From Nemertoderma westbladi (Eukaryota > Animalia > Xenacoelomorpha): DNA of 55,277 bases. Under the pieces are notes generated by a model. That model was not told the DNA's origin and did no database searches. It saw only the letters and a list, made by a program, of their open reading frames with translations. The stretch lies in the NCBI GenBank assembly GCA_032718475.1, contig JAUCBJ010005493.1:1-55277 (forward strand), read 5' to 3'. How positions within the stretch are numbered: position 1 is the stretch's first letter; every line of letters begins with the position of its first letter. Positions 4,386-43,278 of the stretch are shown piece after piece. The position numbers and the translations under genes are program-made.

Positions 4386-4807
4386 CTGGAGAAAACAGTA
4401 ATAACAGAGGATTAATACCTTAGCTCATGTTCTTCACTATAGCCGCAATTTCCAAACACAGCATATCTCTATTAATACCTACTAGCTCCCATTTACTCTA
4501 ATAATTATTGTGGTATAATTATATTTTTTCCCTAGAATGGAGGAAAAATAAAAAAAATAATATTTAATAAATATTCCATAAATTATTTATTAGTATTGCT
4601 ATTTATTAATATAAAAAGTTACAAATATAAGTAAAGGCACCAATATAAGGGCCAATATTATGGGTAAGGGTATGTTTAATTGATAAATTAATTCTTGAAT
4701 TAGTTTTCTCTTATCTCCACTAAGATTTGCCATTAGTCACAATTATTATACCCTAATAATTACGTTTATCCACTAAAGTCATGAAGTGTTATTTATACGT
4801 CACTAAC

Positions 4808-5327
4808 CTTCTTCCAGTTTGGAGCCGCTCGCGACTTGAGTGAGTAGAACGCTGTTCCTAACGTCGACGCTAGTTGGCGGGGCGGGGCACTCCGCGGTGT
4901 CCTTAACGGGTCGTTTAATCGGCGAACCGTCGTCCGGACAGGAGATCTCGTCGCCGAAATCGAGACAATCCGCGACCCGATTACAGATCCGGTCGCCGGA
5001 GACGCAGACAGAGTTGGAGCAGCGGAAGGCACAGCGGTAGTTGCCGGCGTTGAGACATATAAACACGGGTGGGTCGCCCCATCGGCCACCGGGCTCGCAC
5101 ACGGTCGAGGTGGCCGCTAATCCCGAGACCATGTAACCCGGAGCGCAGTCGAACTCGGCTCGGTAGCCGAGTTCGTAGGTGTCCGATGGGTTGCTCAGCA
5201 CCGCATGTTGGATCTTGGGTCGCGTCGGCGGTGGGCACGGAGGTTCAGTCGGTTCGCCCGCCGGTCGAATGATCTCCCCAGAATGCGGACAGCTAATCTC
5301 GTCCCAATGGTCGGTGCAGTCTTCCAC
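4808..5327 (-). CDS. Exon (phase 0-1), CCP-LDLa unit
   Basis: Acceptor cgttctag, donor G|GTTAGT. LDLa motif CVSGDRICNRVADCLDFGDEISC. Confidence 0.9.
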
Positions 5328-5586
5328 CTAGAACGTATACGTAAACGTAAAACAAACGGGAGATAGATAATATAACACGCTGGGAGCAATTAGTCTTGTT
5401 TTTATTCAAACTGATAGTATGTTGTTGCATGTTGAAATGAATTGTTCCCTTGTTCACTGTTATTGTAGGTACAGTAGGCCTACACGTACCGGTAAAGTAC
5501 TACTTAGGCTTCTTTAATTTCAGTTTTGAACCACCTGCATATAAGATCTGACGATGGAAGGACATTTAAACTGAAACACAGTGGCA

Positions 5587-6693
5587 ATGGCTGTTGTCGC
5601 ATCCGAATTAATGCAACAATTCGTGGCGATAACACATCTATCGCCGGCCACTAAATCGCCGCAGCGTTACTTGTGGTCCGATGCGTTCGCTGTACTAAAC
5701 CTATTCGAGCTCGCGAGATTAACCAAAGACAAACAATTCGAGATACACGCGCTGGACCTCATAGAACAAGTCCACGACACCTTAGGTAAACACAGAGAGG
5801 ATGACCCCTTGGGGCGCGCGGGATGGCTGTCAGGAGAGAAAGATGCGACGCACCCGTGTAGAGCGGGACTGCGGATAGGCGAACAACTACCGGAGTGTAG
5901 CGAGGGCAAACGAGACAACGAGATAGAAAGTGACTCGGATGGACAATACTATCATCATCTTACTAAATGGATGTTCGCGCTCAACGTTGCTTCCAGTACT
6001 ACCGGCGACGCACGCTACAACGATAACGCTATTGAACTCGCCAGAGCCGCACATAAAGCCTTCGTTTACGCCACAGGGGCGCGAAACTCTCTCCGTCTTT
6101 ATCGGAAGATGAGCATCGATCTAAGCAAACCCTTAGTGAACTCCATGGGCCATCACGATCCGCTAGACGGGTTGATTAGCTACCTGGAGACCGATCCAAA
6201 AGGTCTGTACAATGAGATCGCGGATCTGGCGTCTGTATGCGGCGACAACAAGGCCTGGGTTACTAATGACGCCATGGGTATTGGGGGGTTGCTATGCGAC
6301 ATGTACCGCCTCTCTGTGCTCGCGACCAGAGGCGTGCTGGACGATTACCCCGGGTTACTGGCCTCCGTTATCGAGGCTGCACGACTGAGTTTAGAATCGT
6401 TCTCCCTGTGTAGTCTCCCTACCGAGTACCGCACAGCGTTCGGGGAACTGCGTCTATCTCTGGGTCTACAAGGGATCCCGAGAGCCAAGGTTCTACTCCA
6501 CGGGAAATCCGATACGATCCGACATCTAAAGAAACTCGAGCGATTGGAGAAGTTTCTGCCTCTAGTCGATAAGATTCATTGGTTTTGGCGGGACGAAAGG
6601 AACCAGATGGCTCGCTCCTGGACAGAGCATCGCCACACCAACATGGTAATGTTGTCTACCAGCCTTCTACCTGCGGCATTCTATAGGAATTAG
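5587..6693 (+). CDS. Intronless 368-aa hypothetical protein nested antisense in intron 5328-7189; resembles a microbial uncharacterised family
   Basis: Uninterrupted GC-rich ORF in AT-rich flanks, first ATG at 5587, AATAAA at 6850. Motifs RYLWSDAFAV, GLRIG, DGQYYHHLTKWMFAL and KMSIDLSKPLVNSMGHHDPLDG match, from memory, a bacterial/archaeal/fungal hypothetical family. Confidence 0.8.
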   Translation: MAVVASELMQQFVAITHLSPATKSPQRYLWSDAFAVLNLFELARLTKDKQFEIHALDLIEQVHDTLGKHREDDPLGRAGWLSGEKDATHPCRAGLRIGEQLPECSEGKRDNEIESDSDGQYYHHLTKWMFALNVASSTTGDARYNDNAIELARAAHKAFVYATGARNSLRLYRKMSIDLSKPLVNSMGHHDPLDGLISYLETDPKGLYNEIADLASVCGDNKAWVTNDAMGIGGLLCDMYRLSVLATRGVLDDYPGLLASVIEAARLSLESFSLCSLPTEYRTAFGELRLSLGLQGIPRAKVLLHGKSDTIRHLKKLERLEKFLPLVDKIHWFWRDERNQMARSWTEHRHTNMVMLSTSLLPAAFYRN

Positions 6694-7189
6694 TTGCCAA
6701 GACTAGACTATTATTCTACTGGCGGTATCATTTAAAATATTTTATTAATAATATCGTACTGTATTTTATCATAATTTATCTCCGTAACACAATTTATTTA
6801 AAGCAGTACCGCCCGACTAGTACCATAATTAATTTACTAACAATTCATTAATAAATTCGAGAATAATTAACAATTATTTTAATGAATTTTTTACTATTTT
6901 ACATAATTGCTGGTCGAATGCAAAAAAATATTTCTCTCAATATGGAAGAATGTCAATTAACTAACGGATAGAAATTATATTTAACAGAAAAATATCTGTA
7001 AAAAAAGTTAAAGTAAAAAAATTATTAATTTATTTCTAGTAAAGAAATATTTCCCTGTTACAATATTGCACATTTACGCGAGTTTCTTTTTAAATAATAA
7101 ACACGATTTAAATACCATTATACTGTAGTAACGTAGTAGGCAGTGATTCCGTCCTAAACTAAAGTTAATCTTCTAAATAATTTGCTAAC

Positions 7190-7384
7190 CTTATCGCAAA
7201 CATTGTCGGCCGATACGCATTTGTTGTTGTCACAGGTGAGCGCGCACAAATAGTCGTTGTTGTGAAGGCAAATAAAGTCAGGTTTACTCCATAAACCGTT
7301 ACCGCATTGCGTCTTTATCATGGCTAACCCGGATACTATATAATCTGGCTTACAGGACAGCTCCAATTCAGCTTTGTCTTCAAA
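7190..7384 (-). CDS. Exon (phase 0-0), CCP and start of an LDLa module
   Basis: Acceptor ttctttaag, donor AAG|GTTAGC. Reads FEDKAELELSCKPDY...CVSADNVCDK. Confidence 0.88.
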
Positions 7385-7775
7385 CTTAAAGAATATTCAA
7401 TTCCAGAATTATAATATACGAAAATGTAAATATTATATAACTATACACAGCTAAAACAGGATGTGTTATAACTTTATGGGACGGGTTACATTATAAGACA
7501 GTTGGCGCTCATTGCCCACTATATTATCTGCTTGTCAATCATCTACACCTGTAGTTCATCTTCGTGTGATTGCAAACACTAACTTACTAAATAATCAATC
7601 TATTAAACAGCCCTTTTCTTTAATCTACAGCATATGCCACGCTCCCATTATGCATTACAGTTGGATGGGCTGATACACGTTCCTTTTTCATCTATAATAT
7701 TTGTGAACATTTATCCCCAAAAATAATAGTATAGTGGTAACAATAAACCTAAGTGTACAGGACACCGAAACCTAC

Positions 7776-8953
7776 CTCGGATTTATCCTCATCGTACCAC
7801 ATCGCGTTCGGAATGGTTGTATTAAACTTGCCGCACTTCCTCCCGCTCGGCCGCTCTATATCGCCCTCCAATGGGCACGAACTTTCATCCGATCCGTCTT
7901 TACAGTCGGTCTCCCCATCACAAACTTTATCCGCCGAGAGACACTCACCAAGACAACTCATGGCGCACTCGTAATTCCCCTTCTTCAGACACAAATAGCT
8001 CACCGAGTCTTCCCACTCACCTGTGGAGGAACACGTCGCCGTAGTTTTCCGCTTTCCCGACACCATGTATCCCGCCTCGCACCGATACCGAATAACGTGT
8101 CCAACCCTATAGACCCCGGCAACCGACTTCAGCCCTGAATCTACCATCCCGTTTGTGGGCGGCTCCGGTATGTTCACCGTGCATGGCATCACCTTGGGTT
8201 GGCACTCGTAATCAGGCTGCCCGCTCCACTCTCCGTCCAAACGGCACACAATCACTGTCTTCTCGCCGTGTACGACTTCGTACTCCGCGGAGCAACCGTA
8301 GGACACAACATCCCCGGGACGGTAGACGGAAGCCCGTTCCCCCGACTCCACTACCCCGATTGGGGGTGGCGCAGGGGGATCGGGGCACAATCGTAGCGGG
8401 CAGTGAAGATCCACCAGCACACTCCATTGTCCTGTTGGTTCGCAGATGATCGACTGTTTCGGAGTCCCGCCAGGACAGGCGTAGACAACCCACTCACCGG
8501 TAACATACACATCCTTCAACACCTCCATGACTTCGGCGTTCTCCAAAACTTCCGGCGGTGGGCTACATAATGTCGAGTGCAAACACTCATAGACAATGTG
8601 TGGAGTCCAAACACCGTCTTGGCATTTCGAGATTTTATCGATATTATTAGATGGACTGTATCCATCCTTACATCCGTATTCCACATGATCTTGCTCGAGG
8701 TACTTAATGCCCGACGATGCATCCACCGCAATAATTCCATTGGGGGGTGGATCCGGGGGATACTCGCAACCATTCCCCTCCATGCTCCTGAGGGGATCGT
8801 GCACATCTCGTGGGCTGCGAGAGCTCCTGTCTATTTCGTATTTACGTATCGGTTGTAGAAACCATGGAAACATTCGCGCTAGCTTGCTGGGCACGCATTC
8901 GTATTGCAGTTGTGACTGCATGGCTTTTTTGGGAAACGTGATCCATTTAACTT
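7776..8953 (-). CDS. Exon (phase 1-0), linker, about four CCPs and first LDLa module
   Basis: Acceptor ttttgttgattag, donor GAG|GTAGGT. LDLa motif CLSADKVCDGETDCKDGSDESSC. Confidence 0.9.
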
Positions 8954-9059
8954 CTAATCAACAAAAATTAATGATTATGAGTCAGCTTTAATTTATCTAA
9001 TTTTCCTTTGTATTTTGAAATTTGAAACACAGAAGGTTCATTTCTTTAATTAGGCAAAA

Positions 9060-14732: not shown

Positions 14733-17700
14733 CAAAAGAGACCCTGTAGTAATAGTTATTCACTTACTCGTATACCCCTTCTACCAAAAGAGACCCTGTA
14801 GTAATAGTTATTCACTTACTCGTATACCCCTTCTACCAAAAGAGACCATGTAGTAATAGTTATTCACTTACTCGTATACCCCTTCTACCAAAAGAGACCA
14901 TGTAGTAATAGTTATTCACTTACTCGTATACCCCTTCTACTGTACCAAAAGAGACCATGTAGTAATAGTTATTCACTTACTTGTATACCCCTTCTACCAA
15001 AAGAGACCATGTAGTATTAGTTATTCACTTACTCGTATACCCCTTCTACCAAAAGAGACCATGTAGTAATAGTTATTCACTTACTTGTATACCCCTTCTA
15101 CCAAAAGAGACCCTGTAGTATTAGTTATTCACTTACTCGTATACCCCTTCTACCAAAAGAGACCATGTAGTAATAGTTATTCACTTACTTGTATACCCCT
15201 TCTACCAAAAGAGACCCTGTAGTATTAGTTATTCACTTACTCGTATACCCCTTCTACCAAAAGAGACCATGTAGTAATAGTTATTCACTTACTTGTATAC
15301 CCCTTCTACCAAAAGAGACCCTGTAGTATTAGTTATTCACTTACTCGTATACCCCTTCTACCAAAAGAGACCATGTAGTATTAGTTATTCACTTACTCGT
15401 ATACCCCTTCTACCAAAAGAGACCATGTAGTAATAGTTATTCACTTACTTGTATACCCCTTCTACCAAAAGAGACCCTGTAGTATTAGTTATTCACTTAC
15501 TCGTATACCCCTTCTACCAAAAGAGACCCTGTAGTAATAGTTATTCACTTACTCGTATACCCCTTCTACCAAAAGAGACCATGTAGTTATTCACTTACTC
15601 GTATACCCCTTCTACCAAAAGAGACCCTGTAGTATTAGTTATTCACTTACTCGTATACCCCTTCTACCAAAAGAGACCCTGTAGTATTAGTTATTCACTT
15701 ACTCGTATACCCCTTCTACCAAAAGAGACCCTGTAGTATTAGTTATTCACTTACTCGTATACCCCTTCTACCAAAAGAGACCCTGTAGTAATAGTTATTC
15801 ACTTACTCGTATACCCCTTCTACCAAAAGAGACCATGTAGTAATAGTTATTCACTTACTCATATACCCCTTCTACCAAAAGAGACCATGTAGTAATAGTT
15901 ATTCACTTACTCGTATACCCCTTCTACCAAAAGAGACCATGTAGTAATAGTTATTCACTTACTCGTATACCCCTTCTACCAAAAGAGACCATGTAGTTAT
16001 TCACTTACTCGTATACCCCTTCTACCAAAAGAGACCATGTAGTAATAGTTATTCACTTACTCGTATACCCCTTCTACCAAAAGAGACCCTGTAGTAATAG
16101 TTATTCACTTACTCGTATACCCCTTCTACCAAAAGAGACCATGTAGTAATAGTTATTCACTTACTCGTATACCCCTTCTACCAAAAGAGACCATGTAGTT
16201 ATTCACTTACTCGTATACCCCTTCTACCAAAAGAGACCATGTAGTAATAGTTATTCACTTACTCGTATACCCCTTCTACCAAAAGAGACCATGTAGTAAT
16301 AGTTATTCACTTATTCGTATACCCCTTCTACCAAAAGAGACCATGTAGTTATTCACTTACTCGTATACCCCTTCTACCAAAAGAGACCATGTAGTAATAG
16401 TTATTCACTTACTCGTATACCCCTTCTACCAAAAGAGACCCTGTAGTAATAGTTATTCACTTACTCGTATACCCCTTCTACCAAAAGAGACCCTGTAGTA
16501 ATAGTTATTCACTTACTCGTATACCCCTTCTACTGTACCAAAAGAGACCATGTAGTAATAGTTATTCACTTACTCGTATACCCCGTCTACCAAAAGAGAC
16601 CCTGTAGTAATAGTTATTCACTTACTCGTATACCCCTTCTACCAAAAGAGACCATGTAGTAATAGTTATTCACTTACTCGTATACCCCGTCTACCAAAAG
16701 AGACCCTGTAGTAATAGTTATTCACTTACTCGTATACCCCTTCTACCAAAAGAGACCCTGTAGTAATAGTTATTCACTTACTCGTATACCCCTTCTACCA
16801 AAAGAGACCATGTAGTTATTCACTTACTCGTATACCCCTTCTACCAAAAGAGACCATGTAGTAATAGTTATTCACTTACTCGTATACCCCGTCTACCAAA
16901 AGAGACCATGTAGTAATAGTTATTCACTTACTCGTATACCCCTTCTACCAAAAGAGACCATGTAGTTATTCACTTACTCGTATACCCCTTCTACCAAAAG
17001 AGACCATGTAGTTATTCACTTACTCGTATACCCCGTCTACCAAAAGAGACCATGTAGTAATAGTTATTCACTTACTCGTATACCCCTTCTACCAAAAGAG
17101 ACCATGTAGTAATAGTTATTCACTTACTCGTATACCCCTTCTACCAAAAGAGACCATGTAGTTATTCACTTACTCGTATACCCCTTCTACCAAAAGAGAC
17201 CCTGTAGTAATAGTTATTCACTTACTCGTATACCCCTTCTACCAAAAGAGACCATGTAGTAATAGTTATTCACTTACTCGTATACCCCTTCTACCAAAAG
17301 AGACCCTGTAGTAATAGTTATTCACTTACTCGTATACCCCTTCTACCAAAAGAGACCATGTAGTAATAGTTATTCACTTACTCGTATACCCCTTCTACCA
17401 AAAGAGACCCTGTAGTAATAGTTATTCACTTACTCGTATACCCCTTCTACCAAAAGAGACCATGTAGTTATTCACTTACTCGTATACCCCTTCTACCAAA
17501 AGAGACCATGTAGTAATAGTTATTCACTTACTCGTATACCCCTTCTACCAAAAGAGACCCTGTAGTAATAGTTATTCACTTACTCGTATACCCCTTCTAC
17601 CAAAAGAGACCATGTAGTAATAGTTATTCACTTACTCGTATACCCCTTCTACCAAAAGAGACCCTGTAGTAATAGTTATTCACTTACTCGTATACCCCTT

Positions 17701-20700
17701 CTACCAAAAGAGACCCTGTAGTAACAGTTATTCACTTACTCGTATACCCCTTCTACCAAAAGAGACCCTGTAGTAATAGTTATTCACTTACTCGTATACC
17801 CCTTCTACCAAAAGAGACCATGTAGTTATTCACTTACTCGTATACCCCTTCTACCAAAAGAGACCCTGTAGTAATAGTTATTCACTTACTCGTATACCCC
17901 GTCTACCAAAAGAGACCCTGTAGTAATAGTTATTCACTTACTCGTATACCCCTTCTACCAAAAGAGACCATGTAGTAATAGTTATTCACTTACTCGTATA
18001 CCCCTTCTACCAAAAGAGACCATGTAGTAATAGTTATTCACTTACTCGTATACCCCTTCTACCAAAAAGAGACCATGTAGTAATAGTTATTCACTTACTC
18101 GTATACCCCTTCTACCAAAAGAGACCATGTAGTAATAGTTATTCACTTACTCGTATACCCCTTCTACCAAAAGAGACCCTGTAGTAATAGTTATTCACTT
18201 ACTCGTATACCCCTTCTACCAAAAGAGACCCTGTAGTAACAGTTATTCACTTACTCGTATACCCCTTCTACCAAAAGAGACCCTGTAGTAATAGTTATTC
18301 ACTTACTCGTATACCCCTTCTACCAAAAGAGACCATGTAGTAATAGTTATTCACTTACTCGTATACCCCTTCTACCAAAAGAGACCATGTAGTAATAGTT
18401 ATTCACTTACTCGTATACCCCTTCTACCAAAAGAGACCATGTAGTTATTCACTTACTCGTATACCCCTTCTACCAAAAAAGACCATGTAGTAATAGTTAT
18501 TCACTTACTCGTATACCCCTTCTACCAAAAGAGACCATGTAGTAATAGTTATTCACTTACTCGTATACCCCTTCTACCAAAAAGAGACCCTGTAGTAATA
18601 GTTATTCACTTACTCGTATACCCCTTCTACCAAAAGAGACCCTGTAGTAACAGTTATTCACTTACTCGTATACCCCTTCTACCAAAAGAGACCCTGTAGT
18701 AATAGTTATTCACTTACTCGTATACCCCTTCTACCAAAAGAGACCATGTAGTAATAGTTATTCACTTACTCGTATACCCCTTCTACCAAAAGAGACCCTG
18801 TAGTAATAGTTATTCACTTACTCGTATACCCCTTCTACCAAAAGAGACCCTGTAGTAACAGTTATTCACTTACTCGTATACCCCTTCTACCAAAAGAGAC
18901 CCTGTAGTAATAGTTATTCACTTACTCGTATACCCCTTCTACCAAAAGAGACCCTGTAGTAACAGTTATTCACTTACTCGTATACCCCTTCTACCAAAAG
19001 AGACCCTGTAGTAATAGTTATTCACTTACTCGTATACCCCTTCTACCAAAAGAGACCCTGTAGTAATAGTTATTCATTTACTCGTATACCCCTTCTACCA
19101 AAAGAGACCCTGTAGTAATAGTTATTCACTTACTCGTATACCCCTTCTACCAAAAGAGACCCTGTAGTATTAGTTATTCACTTACTCGTATACCCCTTCT
19201 ACCAAAAGAGACCCTGTAGTAATAGTTATTCACTTACTCGTATACCCCTTCTACCAAAAGAGACCATGTAGTTATTCACTTACTCGTATACCCCTTCTAC
19301 CAAAAGAGACCATGTAGTAATAGTTATTCACTTACTCGTATACCCCTTCTACCAAAAGAGACCATGTAGTAATAGTTATTCACTTACTCGTATACCCCTT
19401 CTACCAAAAGAGACCATGTAGTAATAGTTATTCACTTACTCGTATACCCCTTCTACCAAAAGAGACCATGTAGTAATAGTTATTCACTTACTCGTATACC
19501 CCTTCTACCAAAAGAGACCATGTAGTAATAGTTATTCACTTACTCGTATACCCCTTCTACCAAAAGAGACCATGTAGTAATAGTTATTCACTTACTCGTA
19601 TACCCCTTCTACTGTACCAAAAGAGACCATGTAGTAATAGTTATTCACTTACTCGTATACCCCTTCTACCAAAAGAGACCCTGTAGTAACAGTTATTCAC
19701 TTACTCGTATACCCCTTCTACCAAAAGAGACCCTGTAGCTGTAGTAACAGTTATTCACTTACTCGTATACCCCTTCTACCAAAAGAGACCCTGTAGTAAT
19801 AGTTATTCACTTACTCGTATACCCCTTCTACCAAAAGAGACCATGTAGTAATAGTTATTCACTTACTCGTATACCCCTTCTACCAAAAGAGACCCTGTAG
19901 TAACAGTTATTTACTTACTCGTATACCCCTTCTACCAAAAGAGACCCTGTAGTAATAGTTATTCACTTACTCGTATACCCCTTCTACCAAAAGAGACCAT
20001 GTAGTAATAGTTATTCACTTACTCGTATACCCCTTCTACCAAAAGAGACCATGTAGTAATAGTTATTCACTTACTCGTATACCCCTTCTACCAAAAGAGA
20101 CCCTGTAGTAATAGTTATTCACTTACTCGTATACCCCTTCTACCAAAAGAGACCATGTAGTAATAGTTATTCACTTACTCGTATACCCCTTCTACCAAAA
20201 GAGACCCTGTAGTAATAGTTATTCACTTACTCGTATACCCCTTCTACCAAAAGAGACCATGTAGTAATAGTCATTCACTTACTCGTATACCCCTTCTACT
20301 GTACCAAAAGAGACCATGTAGTAATAGTTATTCACTTACTCGTATACCCCGTCTACCAAAAGAGACCCTGTAGTAATAGTTATTCACTTACTCGTATACC
20401 CCTTCTACCAAAAGAGACCCTGTAGTAATAGTTATTCACTTACTCGTATACCCCTTCTACTGTACCAAAAGAGACCATGTAGTAATAGTTATTCACTTAC
20501 TCGTATACCCCTTCTACTGTACCAAAAGAGACCATGTAGTAATAGTTATTCACTTACTCGTATACCCCGTCTACCAAAAGAGACTCTGTAGTAATAGTTA
20601 TTCACTTACTCGTATACCCCTTCTACTGTACCAAAAGAGACCATGTAGTAATAGTTATTCACTTACTCGTATACCCCTTCTACCAAAAGAGACCATGTAG

Positions 20701-23700
20701 TAATAGTTATTCACTTACTCGTATACCCCTTCTACCAAAAGAGACCCTGTAGTAATAGTTATTCACTTACTCGTATACCCCTTCTACCAAAAGAGACCCT
20801 GTAGTAACAGTTATTCACTTACTCGTATACCCCTTCTACCAAAAGAGACCCTGTAGTAATAGTTATTCACTTACTCGTATACCCCTTCTACCAAAAGAGA
20901 CCCTGTAGTAACAGTTATTCACTTACTCGTATACCCCTTCTACCAAAAGAGACCCTGTAGTAATAGTTATTCACTTACTCGTATACCCCTTCTACCAAAA
21001 GAGACCCTGTAGTAATAGTTATTCACTTACTCGTATACCCCTTCTACCAAAAGAGACCCTGTAGTAATAGTTATTCACTTACTCGTATACCCCTTCTACC
21101 AAAAGAGACCCTGTAGTAACAGTTATTCACTTACTCGTATACCCCTTCTACCAAAAGAGACCCTGTAGTAATAGTTATTCACTTACTCGTATACCCCTTC
21201 TACCAAAAGAGACCATGTAGTTATTCACTTACTCGTATACCCCTTCTACCAAAAGAGACCCTGTAGTAATAGTTATTCACTTACTCGTATACCCCTTCTA
21301 CCAAAAGAGACCATGTAGTTATTCACTTACTCGTATACCCCTTCTACCAAAAGAGACCATGTAGTAATAGTTATTCACTTACTCGTATACCCCTTCTACC
21401 AAAAGAGACCATGTAGTAATAGTTATTCACTTACTCGTATACCCCTTCTACCAAAAGAGACCATGTAGTAATAGTTATTCACTTACTCGTATACCCCTTC
21501 TACCAAAAGAGACCCTGTAGTAATAGTTATTCACTTACTCGTATACCCCTTCTACCAAAAGAGACCCTGTAGTAACAGTTATTCACTTACTCGTATACCC
21601 CTTCTACCAAAAGAGACCCTGTAGCTGTAGTAACAGTTATTCACTTACTCGTATACCCCTTCTACCAAAAGAGACCCTGTAGTAATAGTTATTCACTTAC
21701 TCGTATACCCCTTCTACCAAAAGAGACCATGTAGTAATAGTTATTCACTTACTCGTATACCCCTTCTACCAAAAGAGACCATGTAGTAATAGTCATTCAC
21801 TTACTCGTATACCCCTTCTACTGTACCAAAAGAGACCATGTAGTAATAGTTATTCACTTACTCGTATACCCCCGTCTACCAAAAGAGACCCTGTAGTAAT
21901 AGTTATTCACTTACTCGTATACCCCTTCTACCAAAAGAGACCCTGTAGTAATAGTTATTCACTTACTCGTATACCCCTTCTACTGTACCAAAAGAGACCA
22001 TGTAGTAATAGTTATTCACTTACTCGTATACCCCGTCTACCAAAAGAGACTCTGTAGTAATAGTTATTCACTTACTCGTATACCCCTTCTACTGTACCAA
22101 AAGAGACCATGTAGTAATAGTTATTCACTTACTCGTATACCCCGTCTACCAAAAGAGACTCTGTAGTAATAGTTATTCACTTACTCGTATACCCCTTCTA
22201 CTGTACCAAAAGAGACCATGTAGTAATAGTTATTCACTTACTCGTATACCCCGTCTACCAAAAGAGACCCTGTAGTAATAGTTATTCACTTACTCGTATA
22301 CCCCTTCTACTGTACCAAAAGAGACCATGTAGTAATAGTTATTCACTTACTCGTATACCCCTTCTACCAAAAGAGACCATGTAGTAATAGTTATTCACTT
22401 ACTCGTATACCCCTTCTACCAAAAGAGACCCTGTAGTAATAGTTATTCACTTACTCGTATACCCCGTCTACCAAAAGAGACCATGTAGTAATAGTTATTC
22501 ACTTACTCGTATACCCCTTCTACTGTACCAAAAGAGACCATGTAGTAATAGTTATTCACTTACTCGTATACCCCGTCTACCAAAAGAGACCCTGTAGTAA
22601 TAGTTATTCACTTACTCGTATACCCCTTCTACTGTACCAAAAGAGACCATGTAGTAATAGTTATTCACTTACTCGTATACCCCTTCTACCAAAAGAGACC
22701 ATGTAGTAATAGTTATTCACTTACTCGTATACCCCTTCTACCAAAAGAGACCCTGTAGTAATAGTTATTCACTTACTCGTATACCCCGTCTACCAAAAGA
22801 GACCATGTAGTAATAGTTATTCACTTACTCGTATACCCCTTCTACTGTACCAAAAGAGACCATGTAGTAATAGTTATTCACTTACTCGTATACCCCTTCT
22901 ACCAAAAGAGACCCTGTAGTAATAGTTATTCACTTACTCGTATACCCCTTCTACCAAAAGAGACCATGTAGTAATAGTTATTCACTTACTCGTATACCCC
23001 GTCTACCAAAAGAGACCATGTAGTAATAGTTATTCACTTACTCGTATACCCCTTCTACCAAAAGAGACCATGTAGTAATAGTTATTCACTTACTCGTATA
23101 CCCCTTCTACCAAAAGAGACCATGTAGTAATAGTTATTCACTTACTCGTATACCCCTTCTACCAAAAGAGACCCTGTAGTAACAGTTATTCACTTACTCG
23201 TATACCCCTTCTACCAAAAGAGACCATGTAGTAATAGTTATTCACTTACTCGTATACCCCTTCTACCAAAAGAGACCATGTAGTAATAGTTATTCACTTA
23301 CTCGTATACCCCTTCTACCAAAAGAGACCATGTAGTAATAGTTATTCACTTACTCGTATACCCCTTCTACCAAAAGAGACCCTGTAGTAATAGTTATTCA
23401 CTTACTCGTATACCCCTTCTACCAAAAGAGACCATGTAGTAATAGTTATTCACTTACTCGTATACCCCTTCTACCAAAAGAGACCATGTAGTAATAGTTA
23501 TTCACTTACTCGTATACCCCTTCTACCAAAAGAGACCATGTAGTAATAGTTATTCACTTACTCGTATACCCCTTCTACCAAAAGAGACCATGTAGTAATA
23601 GTTATTCACTTACTCGTATACCCCTTCTACCAAAAGAGACCATGTAGTAATAGTTATTCACTTACTCGTATACCCCTTCTACCAAAAGAGACCCTGTAGT

Positions 23701-26700
23701 AATAGTTATTCACTTACTCGTATACCCCTTCTACCAAAAGAGACCATGTAGTAATAGTTATTCACTTACTCGTATACCCCTTCTACCAAAAGAGACCATG
23801 TAGTAATAGTTATTCACTTACTCGTATACTCGTATACCCCTTCTACCAAAAGAGACCATGTAGTAATAGTTATTCACTTACTCGTATACCCCTTCTACCA
23901 AAAGAGACCATGTAGTAATAGTTATTCACTTACTCGTATACCCCTTCTACCAAAAGAGACCATGTAGTAATAGTTATTCACTTACTCGTATACCCCTTCT
24001 ACCAAAAGAGACCATGTAGTAATAGTTATTCACTTACTCGTATACCCCTTCTACCAAAAGAGACCATGTAGTAATAGTTATTCACTTACTCGTATACCCC
24101 TTCTACCAAAAGAGACCATGTAGTAATAGTTATTCACTTACTCGTATACCCCTTCTACCAAAAGAGACCCTGTAGTAATAGTTATTCACTTACTCGTATA
24201 CCCCTTCTACCAAAAGAGACCATGTAGTAATAGTTATTCACTTACTCGTATACCCCGTCTACCAAAAGAGACCCTGTAGTAATAGTTATTCACTTACTCG
24301 TATAACCCTTCTACTGTACCAAAAGAGACCCTGTAGTAATAGTCATTCACTTACTCGTATACCCCTTCTACCAAAAGAGACCATGTAGTAATAGTTATTC
24401 ACTTACTCGTATACCCCTTCTACCAAAAGAGACCATGTAGTAATAGTTATTCACTTACTCGTATACCCCTTCTACCAAAAGAGACCCTGTAGTAATAGTT
24501 ATTCACTTACTCGTATACCCCTTCTACCAAAAGAGACCATGTAGTAATAGTTATTCACTTACTCGTATACCCCTTCTACCAAAAAGAGACCCTGTAGTAA
24601 TAGTTATTCACTTACTCGTATACCCCTTTTACTGTACCAAAAGAGACCATGTAGTAATAGTTATTCACTTACTCGTATACCCCTTCTAACAAAAGAGACC
24701 CTGTAGTAATAGTTATTCACTTACTCGTATACCCCTTCTACTGTACCAAAAGAGACCATGTAGTAATAGTTATTCACTTACTCGTATACCCCTTCTACCA
24801 AAAAGAGACCCTGTAGTAATAGTTATTCACTTACTCGTATACCCCTTCTACCAAAAGAGACCATGTAGTAATAGTTATTCACTTACTCGTATACCCCTTC
24901 TACCAAAAAGAGACCCTGTAGTAATAGTTATTCACTTACTCGTATACCCCTTCTACTGTACCAAAAGAGACCATGTAGTAATAGTTATTCACTTACTCGT
25001 ATACCCCTTCTAACAAAAGAGACCATGTAGTAATAGTTATTCACTTACTCGTATACCCCTTCTACCAAAAGAGACCCTGTAGTTATTCACTTACTCGTAT
25101 ACCCCTTCTACCAAAAGAGACCCTGTAGTAATAGTTATTCACTTACTCGTATACCCCTTCTACCAAAAGAGACCATGTAGTAATAGTTATTCACTTACTC
25201 GTATACCCCTTCTACCAAAAGAGACCATGTAGTAATAGTTATTCACTTACTCGTATACCCCTTCTACCAAAAGAGACCATGTAGTAATAGTTATTCACTT
25301 ACTCGTATACCCCTTCTACCAAAAAGAGACCCTGTAGTAATAGTTATTCACTTACTCGTATACCCCTTCTACTGTACCAAAAGAGACCCTGTAGTAATAG
25401 TTATTCACTTACTCGTATACCCCTTCTACCAAAAGAGACCATGTAGTAATAGTTATTCACTTACTCGTATACCCCTTCTACCAAAAGAGACCCTGTAGTA
25501 ATAGTTATTCACTTACTCGTATACCCCTTCTACTGTACCAAAAGAGACCATGTAGTTATTCACTTACTCGTATACCCCTTCTACCAAAAGAGACCATGTA
25601 GTAATAGTTATTCACTTACTCGTATACCCCTTCTACCAAAAGAGACCATGTAGTAATAGTTATTCACTTACTCGTATACCCCTTCTACCAAAAGAGACCA
25701 TGCAGTAATAGTTATTCACTTACTCGTATACCCCTTCTACCAAAAGAGACCATGTAGTAATAGTTATTCACTTACTCGTATACCCCTTCTACCAAAAGAG
25801 ACCCTGTAGTAATAGTTATTCACTTACTCGTATACCCCTTCTACCAAAAGAGACCATGTAGTAATAGTTATTCACTTACTCGTATACCCCTTCTACCAAA
25901 AGAGACCATGTAGTAATAGTTATTCACTTACTCGTATACCCCTTCTACCAAAAAGAGACCCTGTAGTAATAGTTATTCACTTACTCGTATACCCCTTCTA
26001 CCAAAAGAGACCATGTAGTAATAGTTATTCACTTACTCGTATACCCCTTCTACCAAAAGAGACCATGTGTAATAGTTATTCACTTACTCGTATACCCCTT
26101 CTACCAAAAGAGACCATGTAGTAATAGTTATTCACTTACTCGTATACCCCTTCTACCAAAAGAGACCATGTAGTAATAGTTATTCACTTACTCGTATACC
26201 CCTTCTACCAAAAGAGACCATGTGTAATAGTTATTCACTTACTCGTATACCCCTTCTACCAAAAGAGACCCTGTAGTAATAGTTATTCACTTACTCGTAT
26301 ACCCCTTCTACTGTACCAAAAGAGACCATGTAGTAATAGTTATTCACTTACTCGTATACCCCGTCTACCAAAAGAGACCATGTAGTAATAGTTATTCACT
26401 TACTCGTATACCCCGTCTACCAAAAGAGACCATGTAGTAATAGTTATTCACTTACTCGTATACCCCGTCTACCAAAAGAGACCATGTAGTAATAGTTATT
26501 CACTTACTCGTATACCCCTTCTACCAAAAGAGACCATGTAGTTATTCACTTACTCGTATACCCCTTCTACCAAAAGAGACCCTGTAGTAATAGTTATTCT
26601 CTTACTCGTATACCCCTTCTACTGTACCAAAAGAGACCATGTAGTTATTCACTTACTCGTATACCCCTTCTACCAAAAGAGACCATGTAGTAATAGTTAT

Positions 26701-27185
26701 TCACTTACTCGTATACCCCTTCTACCAAAAGAGACCATGTAGTAATAGTTATTCACTTACTCGCATACCCCTTCTACCAAAAGAGACCATGTAGTTATTC
26801 ACTTACTCGTATACCCCTTCTACCAAAAGAGACCATGTAGTAATAGTTATTCACTTACTCGTATACCCCTTCTACCAAAAGAGACCATGTAGTAATAGTT
26901 ATTCACTTACTCGTATACCCCTTCTACCAAAAGAGACCATGTAGTAATAGTTATTCACTTACTCGTATACCCCTTCTACCAAAAGAGACCATGTAGTAAT
27001 AGTTATTCACTTACTCGTATACCCCTTCTACCAAAAGAGATCATGTAGTAATAGTTATTCACTTACTCGTATACCCCTTCTACCAAAAGAGACCATGTAG
27101 TAATAGTTATTCACTTACTCGTATACCCCTTCTACCAAAAGAGACCATGTAGTAATAGTTATTCACTTACTCGTATACCCCTTCT
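14733..27185. repeat. 12.4-kb minisatellite, about 240 copies of a 52-bp unit (46-, 53-, 57- and 58-bp variants) derived from the exon/5' splice-site junction
   Basis: Unit ctaccaaaagagacc(a/c)tgtagtaatagttattcacttactcgtatacccctt. The array runs directly into the exon at 27171-27185 and into unique intron sequence at about 14732. Confidence 0.97.
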
Positions 27186-27977: not shown

Positions 27978-29162
27978 TGTAAAAGCTTTTGCGGAATTAG
28001 CTGGTTATTTTTCCCGCAAAGTACTCTGTAGTTGGTTTAACGGACATAAAAAGCCGTTTCCTTACTGTACCGGTGTTTTAGTGGACATAAAAAGCCATTT
28101 CTTCTGTATGTGTAATTTAGCGGACATAACTAGCAATTCTATGTCGCAATACGCTAAAATCCCCTTGAAACAGTGTAGTTACTATGACGACAGCTAACAG
28201 CTGATCTGTACACGTGGAGCTTTTTCTTTGTTCTCTGTCGTTTCTTTGTTCGGTCGACCAATCAGAGCGTTTTTTGACTCTGTGTTGGAGGTTGTATACA
28301 GAAACTCATGAATTGAGTCAGTATGTGTATTTTGTCCACAGCCAGAAGACCGGCTTTGGAACCTCTGTGTTTTCAGGCTTTAGCCCAACATTAGTAGGCT
28401 TAATCATAGAAACGTATATCTGTTATCTTAACAAATCAATCATAACATAACTCACTCACCTAATCATATTGTCAACTACAAACACCGCATTTTTACTGCT
28501 ATTTACTGTCGGTTATTCATTATATCAGTTGATGGAATATTGTTATATTTGGATAATATCGATCAATAATCAGAAACCCCAATCTTCTTGATATACTGAA
28601 GGTTAGAGAGACCGGTTACATATAACAATTGCGACTTACATTAAAGTGGTTTTGGAGTGAATCTAATGCTATTTCATAGGCACTACATGAGTCGGTTGTT
28701 GTTCTCTTTATATGTGACTAAAATTAGTGAAGGTCGGCAGATCGGTGTGCAGCATTGTGCGGTATTGTGCATGATTGTGACTGATAACAAAGCATCTCCT
28801 AAAGAATGCGCTATATACGTGAATCCATAGCCATCCCGTTGTGTCTAGTGTAAGTCATAACTCTGTTTACATATTTAGAGCGCCACGTCCTAAAGGAACT
28901 GTTAATATTTCCCGAAAGTGAATAATATTTGTCAGAGACTATATATTACGATCAGTCGAATAATACAGTAGGCCTACACCGCAATAAGGTTAGGCTTCCG
29001 AATCCAGTCTCCCGGGTATATCCAGCGGGTGAATGGTCGCGCATAGACTGGCTTCGGCTAATGTAGTGTATCAAATACTCGTCATAGGCTAAAGTCGATT
29101 TATTATCTAGAAGACATCCAAATTTGGCAGGTTAAACTGCTAAAGGTCTGAGAGCGCGAACA
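27978..29162 (+). repeat. 5' LTR (1185 bp)
   Basis: Starts tgtaaaagc, ends gcgcgaaca. About six substitutions spotted relative to the 3' LTR. Confidence 0.96.
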
Positions 29163-29174
29163 ATAACAGATATA
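29163..29174 (+). promoter_or_regulatory. Non-tRNA primer-binding site, complementary to LTR positions 28415-28426 (putative self-priming)
   Basis: ATAACAGATATA abuts the LTR terminal CA with no spacer and no TGG. Its exact reverse complement TATATCTGTTAT occurs in both LTRs (28415, 46633). Confidence 0.7.
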
Positions 29175-29503
29175 GATTTCAAATTGCAGTGTAGGCAATA
29201 AAAGCAGTTTAATATTGTTCTGGTAAGAACAATAACGGTTATTGCTTCTGTATTGCAGTAGGAAATAAAGCTGAAGTACCGGTGAACCGGTACCCAGTAG
29301 GCCTAACTACCTAACCACACGAACCGGTACTTACAGCAGTACAGGTACAGCAGTATTATTCGATTTTGATAATTATATACCGGTAGGTCTGAATAAGTAA
29401 TCGGGGACGCCTGGTTTTTATTGGGATTTACTTATTTCTGTCAGTTTTATTTATTTGTAGGCTAATATTGAGCAGAAGGCGTGTAAGCCTGCTCAGATTG
29501 TAC

Positions 29504-30084
29504 AGATAATTTGTAGGCTGGACTGTTGTCTGACTGTTGTTAAGTCTGAAGAGATTGCGGTGTGTGTAGAGTGTATGTCCGATAAAGTACTAGTTAGGAA
29601 AGTAGGGGCTTCCAGTGCTGTGAGGTAAATCCCCTCGAAAGAATAAGTCGTACTACTCGGTTAGAACGCATACTAACTAACCATTTCGGAGTCTGCATAT
29701 ACTGTAGTTTGTTTAGGCTTGATAGTAGTCCGCCAGCGTTTGGTCTGTATTTTGTATGTGTAGTCTGTACGGGTAGTGTAATATTTCTTATTTAGATAAT
29801 TTGTAGGCTGGATTGTTGTCTGGCTGTTGTTAAGTTTGAAGAGATTGCGGTGTGTGTAGAGTGTATGTCCGATAAATTACTAGTTAGGAACGTAGGGGCT
29901 TCCAGTGCTGTGAGGTAAATCCCCTTGAAAGAATAAGTTGTACTACTCGGTTAGAACGCATACTAACTAACCATTTTCGGAGTCTGCATATACTGTAGTT
30001 TATTTGGGCTTGATAGTAGTCTGCCAGAGTTTGGTCTGTATTTTGTTTGAGTAGTCTGTACACGTAGCGTAATATTTATTATTC
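29504..30084 (+). repeat. Two tandem copies of a ~290-bp unit in the retrotransposon 5' leader
   Basis: agataatttgtaggctgga...gagattgcggtgtgtgtagagtgtatgtccgataaa recurs at 29504 and 29794. Confidence 0.9.
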
Positions 30085-31033
30085 AGAGTTTATGCGATTA
30101 TTCGCAACATTCATATCCCCAAGTTAATTCCTACAGTAATTGTGTTTGTTGTACATACCGTTATAGTTAAATTAACCCCGGTACTACATCAGGGCTGCTT
30201 GGCGTAGGTAAAGACTGGTGATTTTGTGCCCCGGTCACTCCAGCAGATACCGTGGTTCTTTTAGCTGTACAAGTATTTCTAACTGCTGATTATTTGTTGT
30301 ATAAGTACTTGTACCTAATTTAGGGTTTAGTGTACAGTGCTTTCCGAAGGTAATTAGTGTGTAGGCAGTATATTTGTGTTGTAAAATGGTTAATAGGCAC
30401 GTTGGTTCTGGTAGACCGCGGTAATTAACTTCTTGGTAGGAACACTCCGTGATACATAACGTAGTACTTATAGCGATACGGCTATAAGTCGTCAGACGGT
30501 GGTATTTTTCTATCTGGACAACGCAATATATTTACTACTGCTTGTTATTTTTAAATACCTTAGTACCCTGTCCGTTGTAATAACCAGATATCCTAACCCT
30601 TTGTTGGGCTGGTTTGTAGACTTCTTGTAAAATTACCCTAAAAATTTGTACGTGTAATTTTTGTGTTTATTTAGAGATTGTAATCTCACCCCGAATTGTA
30701 CGTAATTTGTAGTATTAAGTAACTTAGGTAAATTATAATTATTTGTTTTAGTGTCCAACAAGTAGCACTTCACTGAGAGTGTACAGCTTCTGTGCAGTGA
30801 CACCTTCCCAGAAATAATAACATTTATTTCGAATATTGACAAAAACCCATTAAAACGGGTATATATATTATAAATCAACTCAAACCGATTTATAAAATAG
30901 TAGGCCTGTCATACAACAATTAGGTCTTAATATCAGTTGGACTACTGCTTAAATAACGGTAATCAAGTAAAGTAAAGTAAACAAAACAAGTAACCCCTAA
31001 AATTCAGAAATTCAATTATTCTAAAATAATTGA

Positions 31034-31290
31034 CATACCGGTATTTGCAATAGGCTTATTATATTTATTTCTATAAATTTAGGCTAAATTATATACCGGT
31101 ATTCTGTAATTAATTCTAGTCTGTAATTATACTTATATATATACATTATAAGTGTAAGCTGTATACCGGTATTCACGATAGGCTTATTATATATTGCTAT
31201 ATATTTGCGCTGAAATTACATACCGGTATTCTGTGACAAATCTAGTCTGTAATAATACTTATATATATATTATAAGCATACTGGTATTCT
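31034..31290 (+). repeat. Diverged ~127-bp tandem duplication in the leader, rich in TACCGGTA
   Basis: ataccggtatt...ataggcttattata...ataccggtattctgt...ctagtctgtaat occurs twice. Confidence 0.7.
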
Positions 31291-31424
31291 AATATATTAT
31301 ATATATATCACGCTACACTGAGTAGCAGTATCGGTAATTAATTACTAGGCTAACAGTTGATACTGAATTACTAGACTTGCTTTAACTGTAATATAGCAGT
31401 AGGCATTCAACTGTACAAACAAAC

Positions 31425-31853
31425 ATGTCTGACACAAAGCAAAACCTGTCAGACAGTCTCCTAGATACGACCATCTGTGACCCAGACAGGAGTGTGGAAC
31501 GTGTGAGACCGAAGTTCAACTCACCTCCTACTGTAAGAAAGATCATCCCTCCAGTAGTAGTATCCGACCCTAGGCTAGTCCAACACCGTAGGTCTATCAT
31601 AGGCATTCGAGCTCAAGTCAAGCGAGACCAAGAAGCAGCGGAACAGCAGCAACACTCGAGCCGAGAACGTATTTCTCAGCGGCCCGACAGCTCCAGTAGT
31701 GCGGATACTGTAGAGCTGACACCCGAGCTTGGAGCAAAGATGGCGGATGCGATTTATTCGGATCCCCTTCTCATCCTTCCTGCAGCCGTACTCACTAGGG
31801 TATTGATTGCGGTGGAGGAACACCAGATTGATTGGGCGAGAAGTAAGCGATGA
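31425..31853 (+). CDS. 142-aa ORF upstream of gag, overlapping it by ATGA (separate ORF or frameshifted Gag N-terminus)
   Basis: Coding-like composition starts at ATG 31425. The stop TGA overlaps the ATG at 31850. Confidence 0.5.
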   Translation: MSDTKQNLSDSLLDTTICDPDRSVERVRPKFNSPPTVRKIIPPVVVSDPRLVQHRRSIIGIRAQVKRDQEAAEQQQHSSRERISQRPDSSSSADTVELTPELGAKMADAIYSDPLLILPAAVLTRVLIAVEEHQIDWARSKR

Positions 31854-32594
31854 CCAAGGATAGTTATGCGGGATACACAAGGGAAGAATTGAAGTCTATT
31901 GTCGAGTCGCAATGGAACTTCCCCGGACCCGGACTCCCGTTTGACTTATCGGAAGCTGCCTGGGAAGACATACACAGGATGGGAGTAACAAAAGAAACCA
32001 TCGATCCAGCTGTGTGGAAGAGGTCAGCAGCAGGATACATACAGGGATTCTTCAGCTCTATGGAGCGATTAGAGGAACAACTGTTTCGACAACCCCAAGG
32101 ACCTCAAGAGCAGGGAGAGCTGCTTTATCAAGTTAGAGAAAGAATTCTACGAATCAGACTAATCTTATCGGCCTTTGAGGAGGCTTCGAAAAGAAGACAA
32201 GACACGTCGTTGCAAGTTGCCGTAAAGACTTGGTTTCAGCGGGTGAGTCTCCAAGTTCAAGGAACTGCCCAGTGGAAATCTCAGCTGGCTGAGCGCTCAA
32301 CCCATGGAGAATCAACAGACGCTACATTTTCCCAAGTGGAAAGTGAAGCGACGGCAGAGAAACTGCATAAGAGGGATGCCATTGACATCTATCTGTCGGA
32401 CTATCAACGTTTTGTAGGAGATGAAGAGTTGAGGAGAAGGCTAGATGGACTTAGCCCTAATAGTGAAGGAGCCAAGCTTGTGTTGGACGCAATAGATGCG
32501 GATATGATAGCTGCGAACCAAGCTAAATTTGATGAACGCCTCCGCATCACTAAGGTCCAAGAAGAACAAGTAAAGAAAAAACGTATAGAAGACA

Positions 32595-32840
32595 GAAAGA
32601 CAGCGGCAGTGGCAGCAGCAGTGGCAGCGGCAGAAGTGGAAAGAAAAGCGGCAGTGGCAACGGCAGTGGCAGAAGCGGAAAGAAAAGCGGCAGCGGCAGC
32701 GGCAGAGGCAGAAGTGGAAAGAAAAGTGGCAGCGGCAGCGGCAGAGGCAGAAGCGGAAAGAAAAGCGGCAGTGGCAGCGGCTGAAGCGGAAAGAAAAGCG
32801 GCAGTGGCAGCGGCAGAGGCAGTGGCAGAAGCAGAACGGA
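32595..32840 (+). repeat. Coding tandem repeat in gag (AEAERKAAVAAA-like)
   Basis: Recurrent gaaagaaaagcggcag/gtggcagcgg blocks. The antisense ORFs here are shadows of this repeat. Confidence 0.85.
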
Positions 32841-43200: not shown

Positions 43201-43278
43201 ATTTTTTTAGGTGTTTTTTTCTGTTTATGAAAAATGAGGTCAATGGTGTTTATGGGGTTTTGAAAAAATACCGACGAT
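40278..43278 (+). mobile_element. DNA transposon, probably Sola1-like, nested in the retrotransposon 3' region
   Basis: TIR atcgtcggtattttttcaaaacccca is 26 bp perfect and about 37 bp with mismatches. ATAT flanks both ends (termini ambiguous by 2 bp). Subterminal ttttcaaaac...caaa.g.c motifs at about 40460, 40505, 40553, 43005 and 43060. Confidence 0.85.
40770..42848 (+). pseudogene. DDD-type transposase (~692 codons) interrupted by one in-frame TGA at 41931-41933
   Basis: ORFs 40770-41933 and 41991-42848 are in the same frame and are bridged by FRCASFDLQKVLNTP. Motifs SHYCR, PKKDKC, FDLQ, CDSTSGQNKN, GHTEMPVDSVH. Confidence 0.88.

What the first reader, a model, noticed from the sequence alone, without database searches (positions are those of the whole stretch)
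5538..6855. Intronless microbial-type gene nested antisense in an intron: candidate horizontal gene transfer
Seen: an intact 368-codon ORF fills most of a 1.86-kb intron whose flanking exons join perfectly, so it is embedded in host DNA rather than being a contaminant contig. It has a TATA-like CATATAAG at about 5538, a possible acceptor (tttaatttcag, 5523) and AATAAA at 6850. From memory, its motifs match an uncharacterised, probably alpha-helical toroid (glycosidase-like) family of bacteria, archaea and fungi. Some positions I recall as conserved differ here (e.g. GLRIGE, YRTAFGELRL). Inference: a domesticated foreign enzyme gene, possibly diverging in function.
Basis: partly seen in the sequence, partly recalled or inferred. 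Interest (0 to 1): 0.75.

Follow-up and report, generated by a model that had tools for sequence, protein, structure and literature searches.

The report
Microbe-like enzyme gene inside animal intron
An intact, intron-free gene for a microbe-like, probably sugar-handling enzyme sits backwards inside an intron of an animal gene and is likely in use; it may have come from a microbe, but sea anemones, fungi and protists carry relatives too, so gene transfer is possible, not shown.

Summary
A 368-codon ORF (5587-6693, +) lies in a 1862-nt GT-AG intron (5328-7189) of a minus-strand Sushi/LDLa-repeat gene. A second study's contig spans exon-ORF-exon, and a spliced contig skips exactly this intron, so it is not contamination. 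A run with spliced contigs holds one contig over 5469-6872, ending 17 nt after AATAAA: likely a transcript (strand not shown, one study). Two haplotypes differ by 4 synonymous and 3 mild replacement changes, no indels: likely under purifying selection. The protein is predicted to be an (alpha/alpha)6 toroid (pLDDT 96; Z about 21 to cellobiose 2-epimerase and GH76) of an unnamed family, 43-49% identical to prokaryotic proteins. But the family is also in Nematostella, Actinia, Arcella, Pharyngomonas and Schizophyllum; the alien index is only about 22, and trees place the gene nowhere with support: a position beside the anemone clade is not rejected (AU p 0.34-0.40). Transfer is the likeliest single origin (about 45-50%), not demonstrated. 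The protein has changed 14 of 78 near-invariant family positions (median 3) while keeping all invariant acids and histidines: a likely remodelled binding pocket. Moderate interest.

The parts
5587..6693 (+). Intronless ORF, 368 aa (P0001), member of an unnamed family with a predicted (alpha/alpha)6-toroid fold; begins directly with helix 1, no obvious signal peptide (by eye)
5328..7189 (-). Host intron, 1862 nt, GT...AG, that holds the ORF on the opposite strand
   Evidence: exons join in frame; X5 contig skips 1862 nt, CT..AC on +
7190..7384 (-). Host exon upstream of the intron (Sushi repeat end, first part of an LDLa repeat)
   Evidence: X5 joints 7384/7776 and 5325/7188
4808..5327 (-). Host exon downstream of the intron (rest of LDLa repeat, Sushi, LDLa); its low end is read from the sequence only
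5469..6872 (.). Stretch covered by one 1399-nt contig of run X4, a run whose other contigs are spliced; likely the nested gene's transcript (strand and true ends not shown)
6850..6855 (+). AATAAA, likely poly(A) signal; the X4 contig ends 17 nt further on
5554..5574 (+). Six-codon upstream ORF (ATG 5554, TGA 5572-5574), in frame with the main ORF, good Kozak context; the only upstream ATG within the X4 contig
5538..5545 (+). CATATAAG, TATA-like word; lies 69 nt inside the X4 contig, so likely not the TATA box of that RNA
5513..5523 (+). TTTAATTTCAG, acceptor-like word; read through unspliced in the X4 contig

Best explanation
This is an intact, intron-free gene lying on the opposite strand inside an intron of an animal Sushi/LDLa-repeat gene; it is likely transcribed from its own unit, likely kept by selection, and likely came into this animal's lineage long ago from a microbe, separately from the related sea-anemone gene. 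Shown: position, frame, genomic linkage, removal of the host intron, family membership. Inferred: a single-exon microbial gene landed in the intron, where host splicing removes it from the host message; it took on host codon usage and an animal poly(A) signal. The product is predicted to be a cytosolic (alpha/alpha)6-barrel enzyme that binds a sugar or sugar adduct in the central pocket and uses acid/base chemistry from the retained D32, H123, D191, D228, E287 or H348; the loss of three basic (K99, R104, R286) and three aromatic (W115, Y124, W173) family residues likely changed what it binds (for example loss of an anion-binding subsite) rather than abolishing the fold.
For: Linkage in a second study: one X2 contig spans 4666-9000, and X3 5244-9000 (same sample). 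X4 is spliced at 2012/2447 and 3244/3448 and has one contig over 5469-6872, none over the rest of this intron among the listed pieces. X4 versus window in the ORF: 4 synonymous of 258 sites, 3 replacements of 846 (E270D, S276C, D328E), no indel; pN/pS 0.23, binomial p 0.057; 7 substitutions and one deletion in 297 flanking nt, Fisher p 0.004 against replacement sites. Eight indels against the family, all in whole codons; simulated neutral decay to 15% changed residues keeps the frame open in 4.5% of 1500 runs without indels, under 0.1% with 5% indels. Codon usage correlates 0.59 with host exons, median 0.16 (max 0.48) with 80 prokaryotic homologues. Fold: pLDDT 96.2, pTM 0.94; Z 20.9 cellobiose 2-epimerase, 20.6 GH76, rmsd about 4 A over about 300 residues. 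14 of 78 near-invariant columns changed, the most of 131 rows, median 3; all 10 invariant acids and 3 histidines kept. Origin: best hits are prokaryotic (322-324 bits vs 298 Nematostella); no relative above 49% over the full length; the anemone clade is 100/100 supported and the gene falls outside it in the ML tree, and sister positions to Actinia alone are rejected (AU p 0.001 and 0.016); intronless.
Against: Origin is unresolved: 54 of 84 placements (LG) and 66 of 84 (C20) are not rejected, among them sister to the anemone-containing clade (p 0.40 and 0.34); an under-optimised tree forcing the gene together with 15 eukaryote-like rows was also not rejected (p 0.10). Alien index about 22 is below the 30 and 45 cut-offs quoted in PMC5664098 (passages read). 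The gene's branch is long (1.05), so slowly evolving prokaryotes can be top hits by default. Most tree rows have no taxon name. RNA evidence is one contig from one run that the tool labels 'DNA?'; contigs cannot show strand, ends or level. Selection rests on one pair of haplotypes and 7 changes. 10 of 14 changes at invariant sites need only one base change, as drift would give (codons; by eye). Clustering of changes in pocket and lid is not significant (10 of 41 vs 4 of 37, p 0.15; all 13 acids and histidines kept, p 0.08), and pocket positions are assigned from helix ends, not from coordinates. No substrate is known for any family member.
Confidence: 0.45

Rival explanations
1. Vertical remnant: the gene descends from an old eukaryotic or early-animal copy shared with sea anemones, was lost in most animals, moved into this intron (for example as a retrocopy) and evolved fast.
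For: Family members in Actinia (XP_031569281.1), Nematostella, Arcella, Pharyngomonas, Schizophyllum and an Ascomycota-rich Atlas cluster. Identity to anemone proteins (43%) is close to that to the best prokaryotes (47%). Sister position to the anemone-containing clade not rejected. PMC13054926 (abstract read) reports that most earlier transfer candidates became inconclusive with more eukaryote sampling.
Against: ML tree keeps it outside the 100/100 anemone clade; that placement is 7.7-13 log-likelihood units worse and has weight under 0.02. Only two named animals among the listed hits of three searches (120 rows listed each). Named eukaryotic members do not form one group in the unconstrained trees. 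No poly(A) relic or target-site repeat seen at the flanks, and no second copy at 85% or more among the three X1 contigs laid.
Confidence: 0.28
2. Transfer from a microbial eukaryote (protist or fungus), not from a prokaryote.
For: A 2-residue insertion before RxGW is shared with only 7 other rows of 308, several of which look eukaryotic by eye (P0126 groups with Arcella). FastTree put the gene among long, partly eukaryotic rows, without support.
Against: Loop insertions arise repeatedly; named eukaryotes Arcella, Pharyngomonas and Schizophyllum lack it; sister positions to Arcella or Schizophyllum alone are rejected (p 0.03, 0.004).
Confidence: 0.1
3. A decaying or catalytically dead copy: conserved residues are being lost by drift, and the protein, if made, is only a binding protein or has no role.
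For: Most changes at near-invariant sites of 131 rows, several radical (W173R, K99E, R286G, G289R); 10 of 14 are one base away from a consensus-residue codon; a strong upstream ATG could damp translation.
Against: Open frame with eight in-frame indels; neutral simulation rarely keeps it open; replacement sites vary less than flanks; RNA-like contig. A past period of relaxation followed by present constraint, or a non-catalytic binding role, is not excluded.
Confidence: 0.14
4. Contamination or mis-assembly.
For: Closest relatives are microbial; the run search labels are guessed.
Against: Single contigs from a second study join host exon, ORF and host exon; the flanking exons are spliced across it; codon usage and CpG ratio match host exons; nothing above 49% identity in public microbes.
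Confidence: 0.01

Closest known systems
Unnamed 'hypothetical protein' family of about 390 aa (e.g. Nematostella predicted protein P0384, Actinia XP_031569281.1, homologues in Desulfobacterota, Nitrospirota, Methanobacteriota)
   Same: 43-49% identity over 97-99% of the length, E down to 1e-95; motifs RYLW.D, GLRIG, DGQY.H, KMS.DL, HDPLDG, W..H
   Different: 14 of 78 near-invariant positions changed (anemone proteins 1-2); about 20 residues shorter through in-frame deletions; nested in an animal intron
AGE superfamily (cellobiose 2-epimerase, N-acylglucosamine 2-epimerase, YihS; PF07221)
   Same: (alpha/alpha)6 barrel, Z 20.9, rmsd 4.0 over 300 residues to 5zig; 15 of 115 family members hit PF07221 weakly, best E 4e-4; Atlas lead 0.75
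   Different: 8-12% identity; no Pfam hit for this protein; equivalence of the two catalytic histidines not established
GH76 alpha-1,6-mannanases and other six-hairpin glycosidases (GH8, GH88, GH126, GH127)
   Same: Same barrel: Foldseek E 9e-4, TM 0.53-0.56 to GH76A; Z 20.4-20.6; RefSeq names a 30%-identical Rhizobium relative 'glycoside hydrolase family 76 protein'
   Different: No Pfam GH76 hit for this protein or that Rhizobium protein; only 2 of 115 members hit PF03663; fold ties with the epimerases, so it gives no reaction
Horizontally acquired genes of animals (e.g. tunicate cellulose synthase, named in the abstract of PMC13390645 in a search listing) and nested intronless genes
   Same: Microbe-like, intronless gene integrated in animal DNA on the strand opposite its host gene
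   Different: No supported donor, alien index below the usual cut-offs, and relatives in other animals

Membership tests
Horizontally transferred gene | Physically linked to host genes, not a contaminant | tested here: met
   X2 contig 4666-9000 and X3 contig 5244-9000 from a second study; X5 splices across it
Horizontally transferred gene | Much better match to non-animals than to animals (alien index above 30, or 45) | tested here: not met
   about 22; 24 bits (on the 518 held relatives only, database size set to 1e11); cut-offs from PMC5664098, which also says AI above 0 is 'possible HGT' and above 14 removed unsupported cases in its nematode test
Horizontally transferred gene | Nested with support inside a donor clade, union with other animal copies rejected | tested here: inconclusive
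   No supported sister; sister to anemone-containing clade AU p 0.40 and 0.34
Horizontally transferred gene | Absent from related animal lineages | not testable with these tools
   No animal genome search; the organism is coded; only listed top hits were seen
Functional nested gene | Lies wholly within a spliced intron of another gene | tested here: met
Functional nested gene | Own transcript on its own strand | tested here: inconclusive
   One contig 5469-6872 in a spliced run; strand and ends cannot be read from contigs
Functional nested gene | Purifying selection | tested here: inconclusive
   pN/pS 0.23 (p 0.057); replacements vs flanks p 0.004; one haplotype pair
Six-hairpin (alpha/alpha)6 toroid fold | Six helical hairpins in a closed barrel | tested here: met
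   Model pLDDT 96; top rows of both structure searches are this fold, Z 15-21 over 250-317 residues
AGE superfamily (PF07221) | Profile match at the curated score | tested here: not met
   No hit for P0001 up to E 1; members only weak
AGE superfamily (PF07221) | Two catalytic histidines in the pocket (PMC13363691, passage) | tested here: inconclusive
   H63, H123, H348 near-invariant and H190 at 84%, but no residue-level superposition was available
GH76 | Profile match PF03663 | tested here: not met
GH76 | Adjacent catalytic aspartate pair (recalled; also seen in PDB titles D136/D137) | tested here: inconclusive
   No near-invariant Asp-Asp pair at an inner-helix start in this family; superposition not available
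Retrocopy | Poly(A) relic, target-site duplication, intron-bearing parent | tested here: inconclusive
   No convincing flanking repeat; no genome held to look for a parent; old retrocopies lose these marks

The most novel reading that the evidence does not exclude
Animals took up this uncharacterised microbial sugar-barrel enzyme twice, once in sea anemones and once in this lineage, where it was domesticated inside an intron and its pocket rebuilt for a new substrate; the family, whose prokaryotic genes recur beside the protein-repair methyltransferase PCMT, would be an undescribed damage-repair enzyme acting on sugar adducts.
Probability: 0.1. Interest if true: 0.75.

Novelty: new member of a known kind. 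Interest (0 to 1): 0.42.

Why it matters
It points to an enzyme family of several thousand members across bacteria, archaea, protists, fungi and a few animals that has no Pfam or NCBIfam model, no solved structure and, in the one accession search made, no paper. The animal copy is a natural variant with a changed pocket, which makes a direct canonical-versus-variant assay possible. If the transfer is confirmed it is a clean case of an old microbial gene domesticated inside an intron; if not, it documents a widely lost ancient gene. Neither would overturn current views: animal transfer candidates and nested genes are known kinds.

Tried and rejected
No genome held for the window, so no search for paralogues, a parent copy or the organism's other genes. 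No hit for P0001 in Pfam, NCBIfam or PDB sequences; the family profile gave only cellobiose 2-epimerase at E 0.28. No RNA holder listed by the run search; X4 and X5 were recognised as spliced only after laying. X5, which splices the host intron, has no listed contig on the ORF, and X6 has nothing laid: absence in contigs proves nothing. Contig depths (151 on the ORF, 35 and 16 on host exons in X4) are not a measure of expression level and were not used as such. No relative in viral contigs or phages; none close in metagenome contigs; three distant Rhizobium plasmid hits. The anemone-profile metagenome scan gave 80 loci at 51-61% identity, not examined for origin. treekit AU test on 87 rows did not finish; constrained full searches timed out; the fast constrained trees are under-optimised (the fast free tree was 58 units worse than the full one), so its rejections were not used. 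Earlier trees placed the gene differently each time. Sigma-70 promoter and terminator scans at chance level. P0250/P0381 as a fusion to erythromycin esterase: not supported. No earlier scan notes. Literature: eight searches found no paper on this family or locus; accession search empty. The host protein could not be named. No complex prediction was run.

Full report
1. Observation. The window is animal-like DNA with a long minus-strand gene made of Sushi and LDLa repeats. Between its exons 7190-7384 and 4808-5327 lies a 1862-nt GT-AG intron; the exons join in one open frame and complete an LDLa repeat. On the plus strand of this intron, 5587-6693 is an open frame of 368 codons, far longer than any of 2000 shuffles (at most 245).

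2. It is host DNA. Five of six listed runs hold the stretch, from three studies, one of them possibly the source. A single contig of X2 (second study) covers 4666-9000, that is exon, ORF and exon; X3, the same sample, covers 5244-9000. Run X5 has a contig that skips 1862 nt at 5325/7188 and 391 nt at 7384/7776, so the host intron is spliced as predicted. Codon usage of the ORF correlates 0.59 with ten host exon pieces (pieces of similar size against the rest: 0.15-0.65) and 0.16 at the median with 80 prokaryotic homologues; GC3 0.58 and CpG ratio 1.18 match host exons. Contamination is excluded and the insertion is not recent.

3. Likely transcribed. The tool labels X4 'DNA?' by guess, but its contigs are spliced at two host introns (2012/2447, 3244/3448), so I read it as RNA. 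It has one 1399-nt contig over 5469-6872 with no loose end, covering the ORF, 118 nt before and 179 nt after, and ending 17 nt after the AATAAA at 6850. No listed X4 piece covers the rest of this intron. That fits a separate polyadenylated transcript better than leftover host intron RNA, but contigs cannot show strand, ends or level, and it is one study. The TATA-like word (5538) and the AG at 5523 lie inside this contig, which is unspliced there, so they do not look like its promoter or acceptor. A six-codon upstream ORF (5554-5574) precedes the main ATG.

4. Likely constrained. X4 differs from the window at 7 ORF positions: 4 synonymous (258 sites) and 3 replacements at variable positions (E270D, S276C, D328E; 846 sites), no indel; pN/pS 0.23, p 0.057. 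The 297 flanking nt in the same contig carry 7 substitutions and a 5-nt deletion; against replacement sites p 0.004, against synonymous sites p 0.56. Host exons show 17 synonymous of 21 listed changes (the table was cut by 10 rows). X2, X3 and X4 share alleles, so this is one haplotype pair. Against the family the protein has eight indels, all in whole codons; simulated neutral decay to 10-15% changed residues leaves the frame open in 14% to 4.5% of runs without indels, and 2.5% to under 0.1% with 5% indels.

5. The family. No Pfam, NCBIfam or PDB sequence hit. 2815 of 7999 scored candidates and 1234 representatives match; the best are 43-49% identical over the full length, all unnamed or 'hypothetical'. 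The 80 best genome loci are bacteria and archaea, mostly Desulfobacterota, Nitrospirota and methanogens. Of 29 relatives looked up, five carried an organism name: Arcella, Schizophyllum, Pharyngomonas, Actinia and a Kapaibacterium. A search from the Actinia protein added Nematostella (64%) and two unnamed proteins of the same group. The Atlas lists bacterial, archaeal and Ascomycota-rich clusters without Pfam. So the family is patchy across all three domains and reaches animals.

6. Origin. BLAST favours prokaryotes only slightly: 322-324 bits against 298 for Nematostella; alien index about 22, in the 'possible', not the 'very likely' class of PMC5664098 (passages read). In a 44-row tree (LG+F+G4; 44 chosen from about 500 held relatives; most rows unnamed) the anemone proteins, the two unnamed ones, Arcella and P0126 form a 100/100 group; the query stands outside on a branch of 1.05 with no supported sister. 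Grafting it on all 84 branches, 30 (LG) or 18 (C20) placements are rejected; sister to Actinia alone is rejected, sister to the whole anemone-containing group is not (p 0.40, 0.34). The backbone was fixed in these tests. A separate transfer from a microbe is the simplest reading of an intronless, lineage-isolated gene with prokaryotic best hits, but vertical descent with wide loss remains open; PMC13054926 (abstract) reports how often such cases turn inconclusive. My odds: prokaryote donor about 0.45-0.5, vertical about 0.3, microbial eukaryote about 0.1.

7. Fold and likely chemistry. The model is confident (pLDDT 96.2, pTM 0.94). Both structure searches return six-hairpin barrels: cellobiose 2-epimerase Z 20.9, GH76 Z 20.4-20.6, tied, at 8-12% identity. 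Fold gives no reaction: PMC13363691 (passages) notes the same tie between AGE epimerases and glycosidases for another family. Near-invariant residues gather at the starts of the inner helices (R27-D32, D118-H123, D191, D228, R282-E287, H348), where such barrels have their active site (established knowledge; not checked on coordinates). I infer a cytosolic enzyme on a sugar or sugar adduct. The query changed 14 of 78 near-invariant columns, more than any of 130 homologues (median 3, maximum 13; anemone proteins 1-2), with a typical match at variable columns. It keeps all 10 invariant acids and 3 histidines and loses three basic and three aromatic residues: a likely change of ligand. The statistics for this pattern are weak (p 0.08 and 0.15), and 10 of the 14 changes are single-base steps, so relaxation contributed or may explain it.

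8. A lead on function. Prokaryotic neighbourhoods are not conserved. The commonest neighbour within two ORFs is PCMT and/or erythromycin-esterase domain: 9 of 162 loci (7 PCMT, of which 2 fused to the esterase, and 2 esterase only), in Nitrospirota, Campylobacterota, Gammaproteobacteria, Rhizobium and metagenome contigs, about six lineages by pairwise identity; two of the nine came from a separate plasmid search. DJ-1/PfpI is next to 5 of 162, mostly close relatives. This hints at damage repair; 153 of 162 loci lack the PCMT link.

9. Verdict. Real, embedded, likely expressed and constrained nested gene of an undescribed enzyme family, with a changed pocket; horizontal origin plausible but unproven. 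New member of known kinds (nested gene, transfer candidate). Interest 0.42.

Noticed in passing
window 27978-47380: A 19.4-kb Bel/Pao-type LTR retrotransposon in an intron of the same host gene: 1185-nt TG...CA terminal repeats 99.5% alike (27978-29162, 46196-47380), 5-nt target-site repeat AACCT, DUF1759, Peptidase_A17, integrase zinc finger and DUF5641 hits. Unusually long; holds a DUF7869 ORF pair (40728-42848), a DUF6451 fragment (34174-34812) and unassigned ORFs at 44745-45672.
   Followed up: partly
window 14733-27185: A 12.4-kb minisatellite, 239 copies of a 52-nt unit at 94% match, inside a host intron.
   Followed up: no
window 1380-51088, minus strand: The host gene is a very long run of Sushi repeats, with Sushi-LDLa pairs in its 3' part and unusually large exons (up to about 1.5 kb); not named.
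   Followed up: partly
window 4387-4495: In spliced run X4 a contig continues from the host exon about 110 nt into the intron and then has 38 unplaced letters; X4 covers host exons only below 4500. Could be an internal start or a different 5' exon for the 3' part of the host gene.
   Followed up: no
window 51720-55055, + strand: LINE-type element with endonuclease and reverse transcriptase in an open 967-codon frame.
   Followed up: no
window 47759-49076: 10-nt-unit tandem array of about 128 copies next to the right LTR.
   Followed up: no
P0360, P0384, P0385, P0386: Sea-anemone members of the family are 56-59% identical to bacterial proteins and keep nearly all invariant residues; the group sits near Desulfobacterota and Nitrospirota rows without support. 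It may itself be an unreported transfer; P0385 and P0386 are unnamed.
   Followed up: partly
L081:1928-4840, L082:1929-4852: In Rhizobium plasmids the family gene follows a PCMT-erythromycin-esterase fusion gene at 3-16 nt; in L081 it is split into two annotated pieces.
   Followed up: partly
P0149, P0191, P0215: A few other family members show the same or parallel changes at invariant sites (W to R, Y to H, K to N), so this pocket may degrade or shift in repeatable ways.
   Followed up: no
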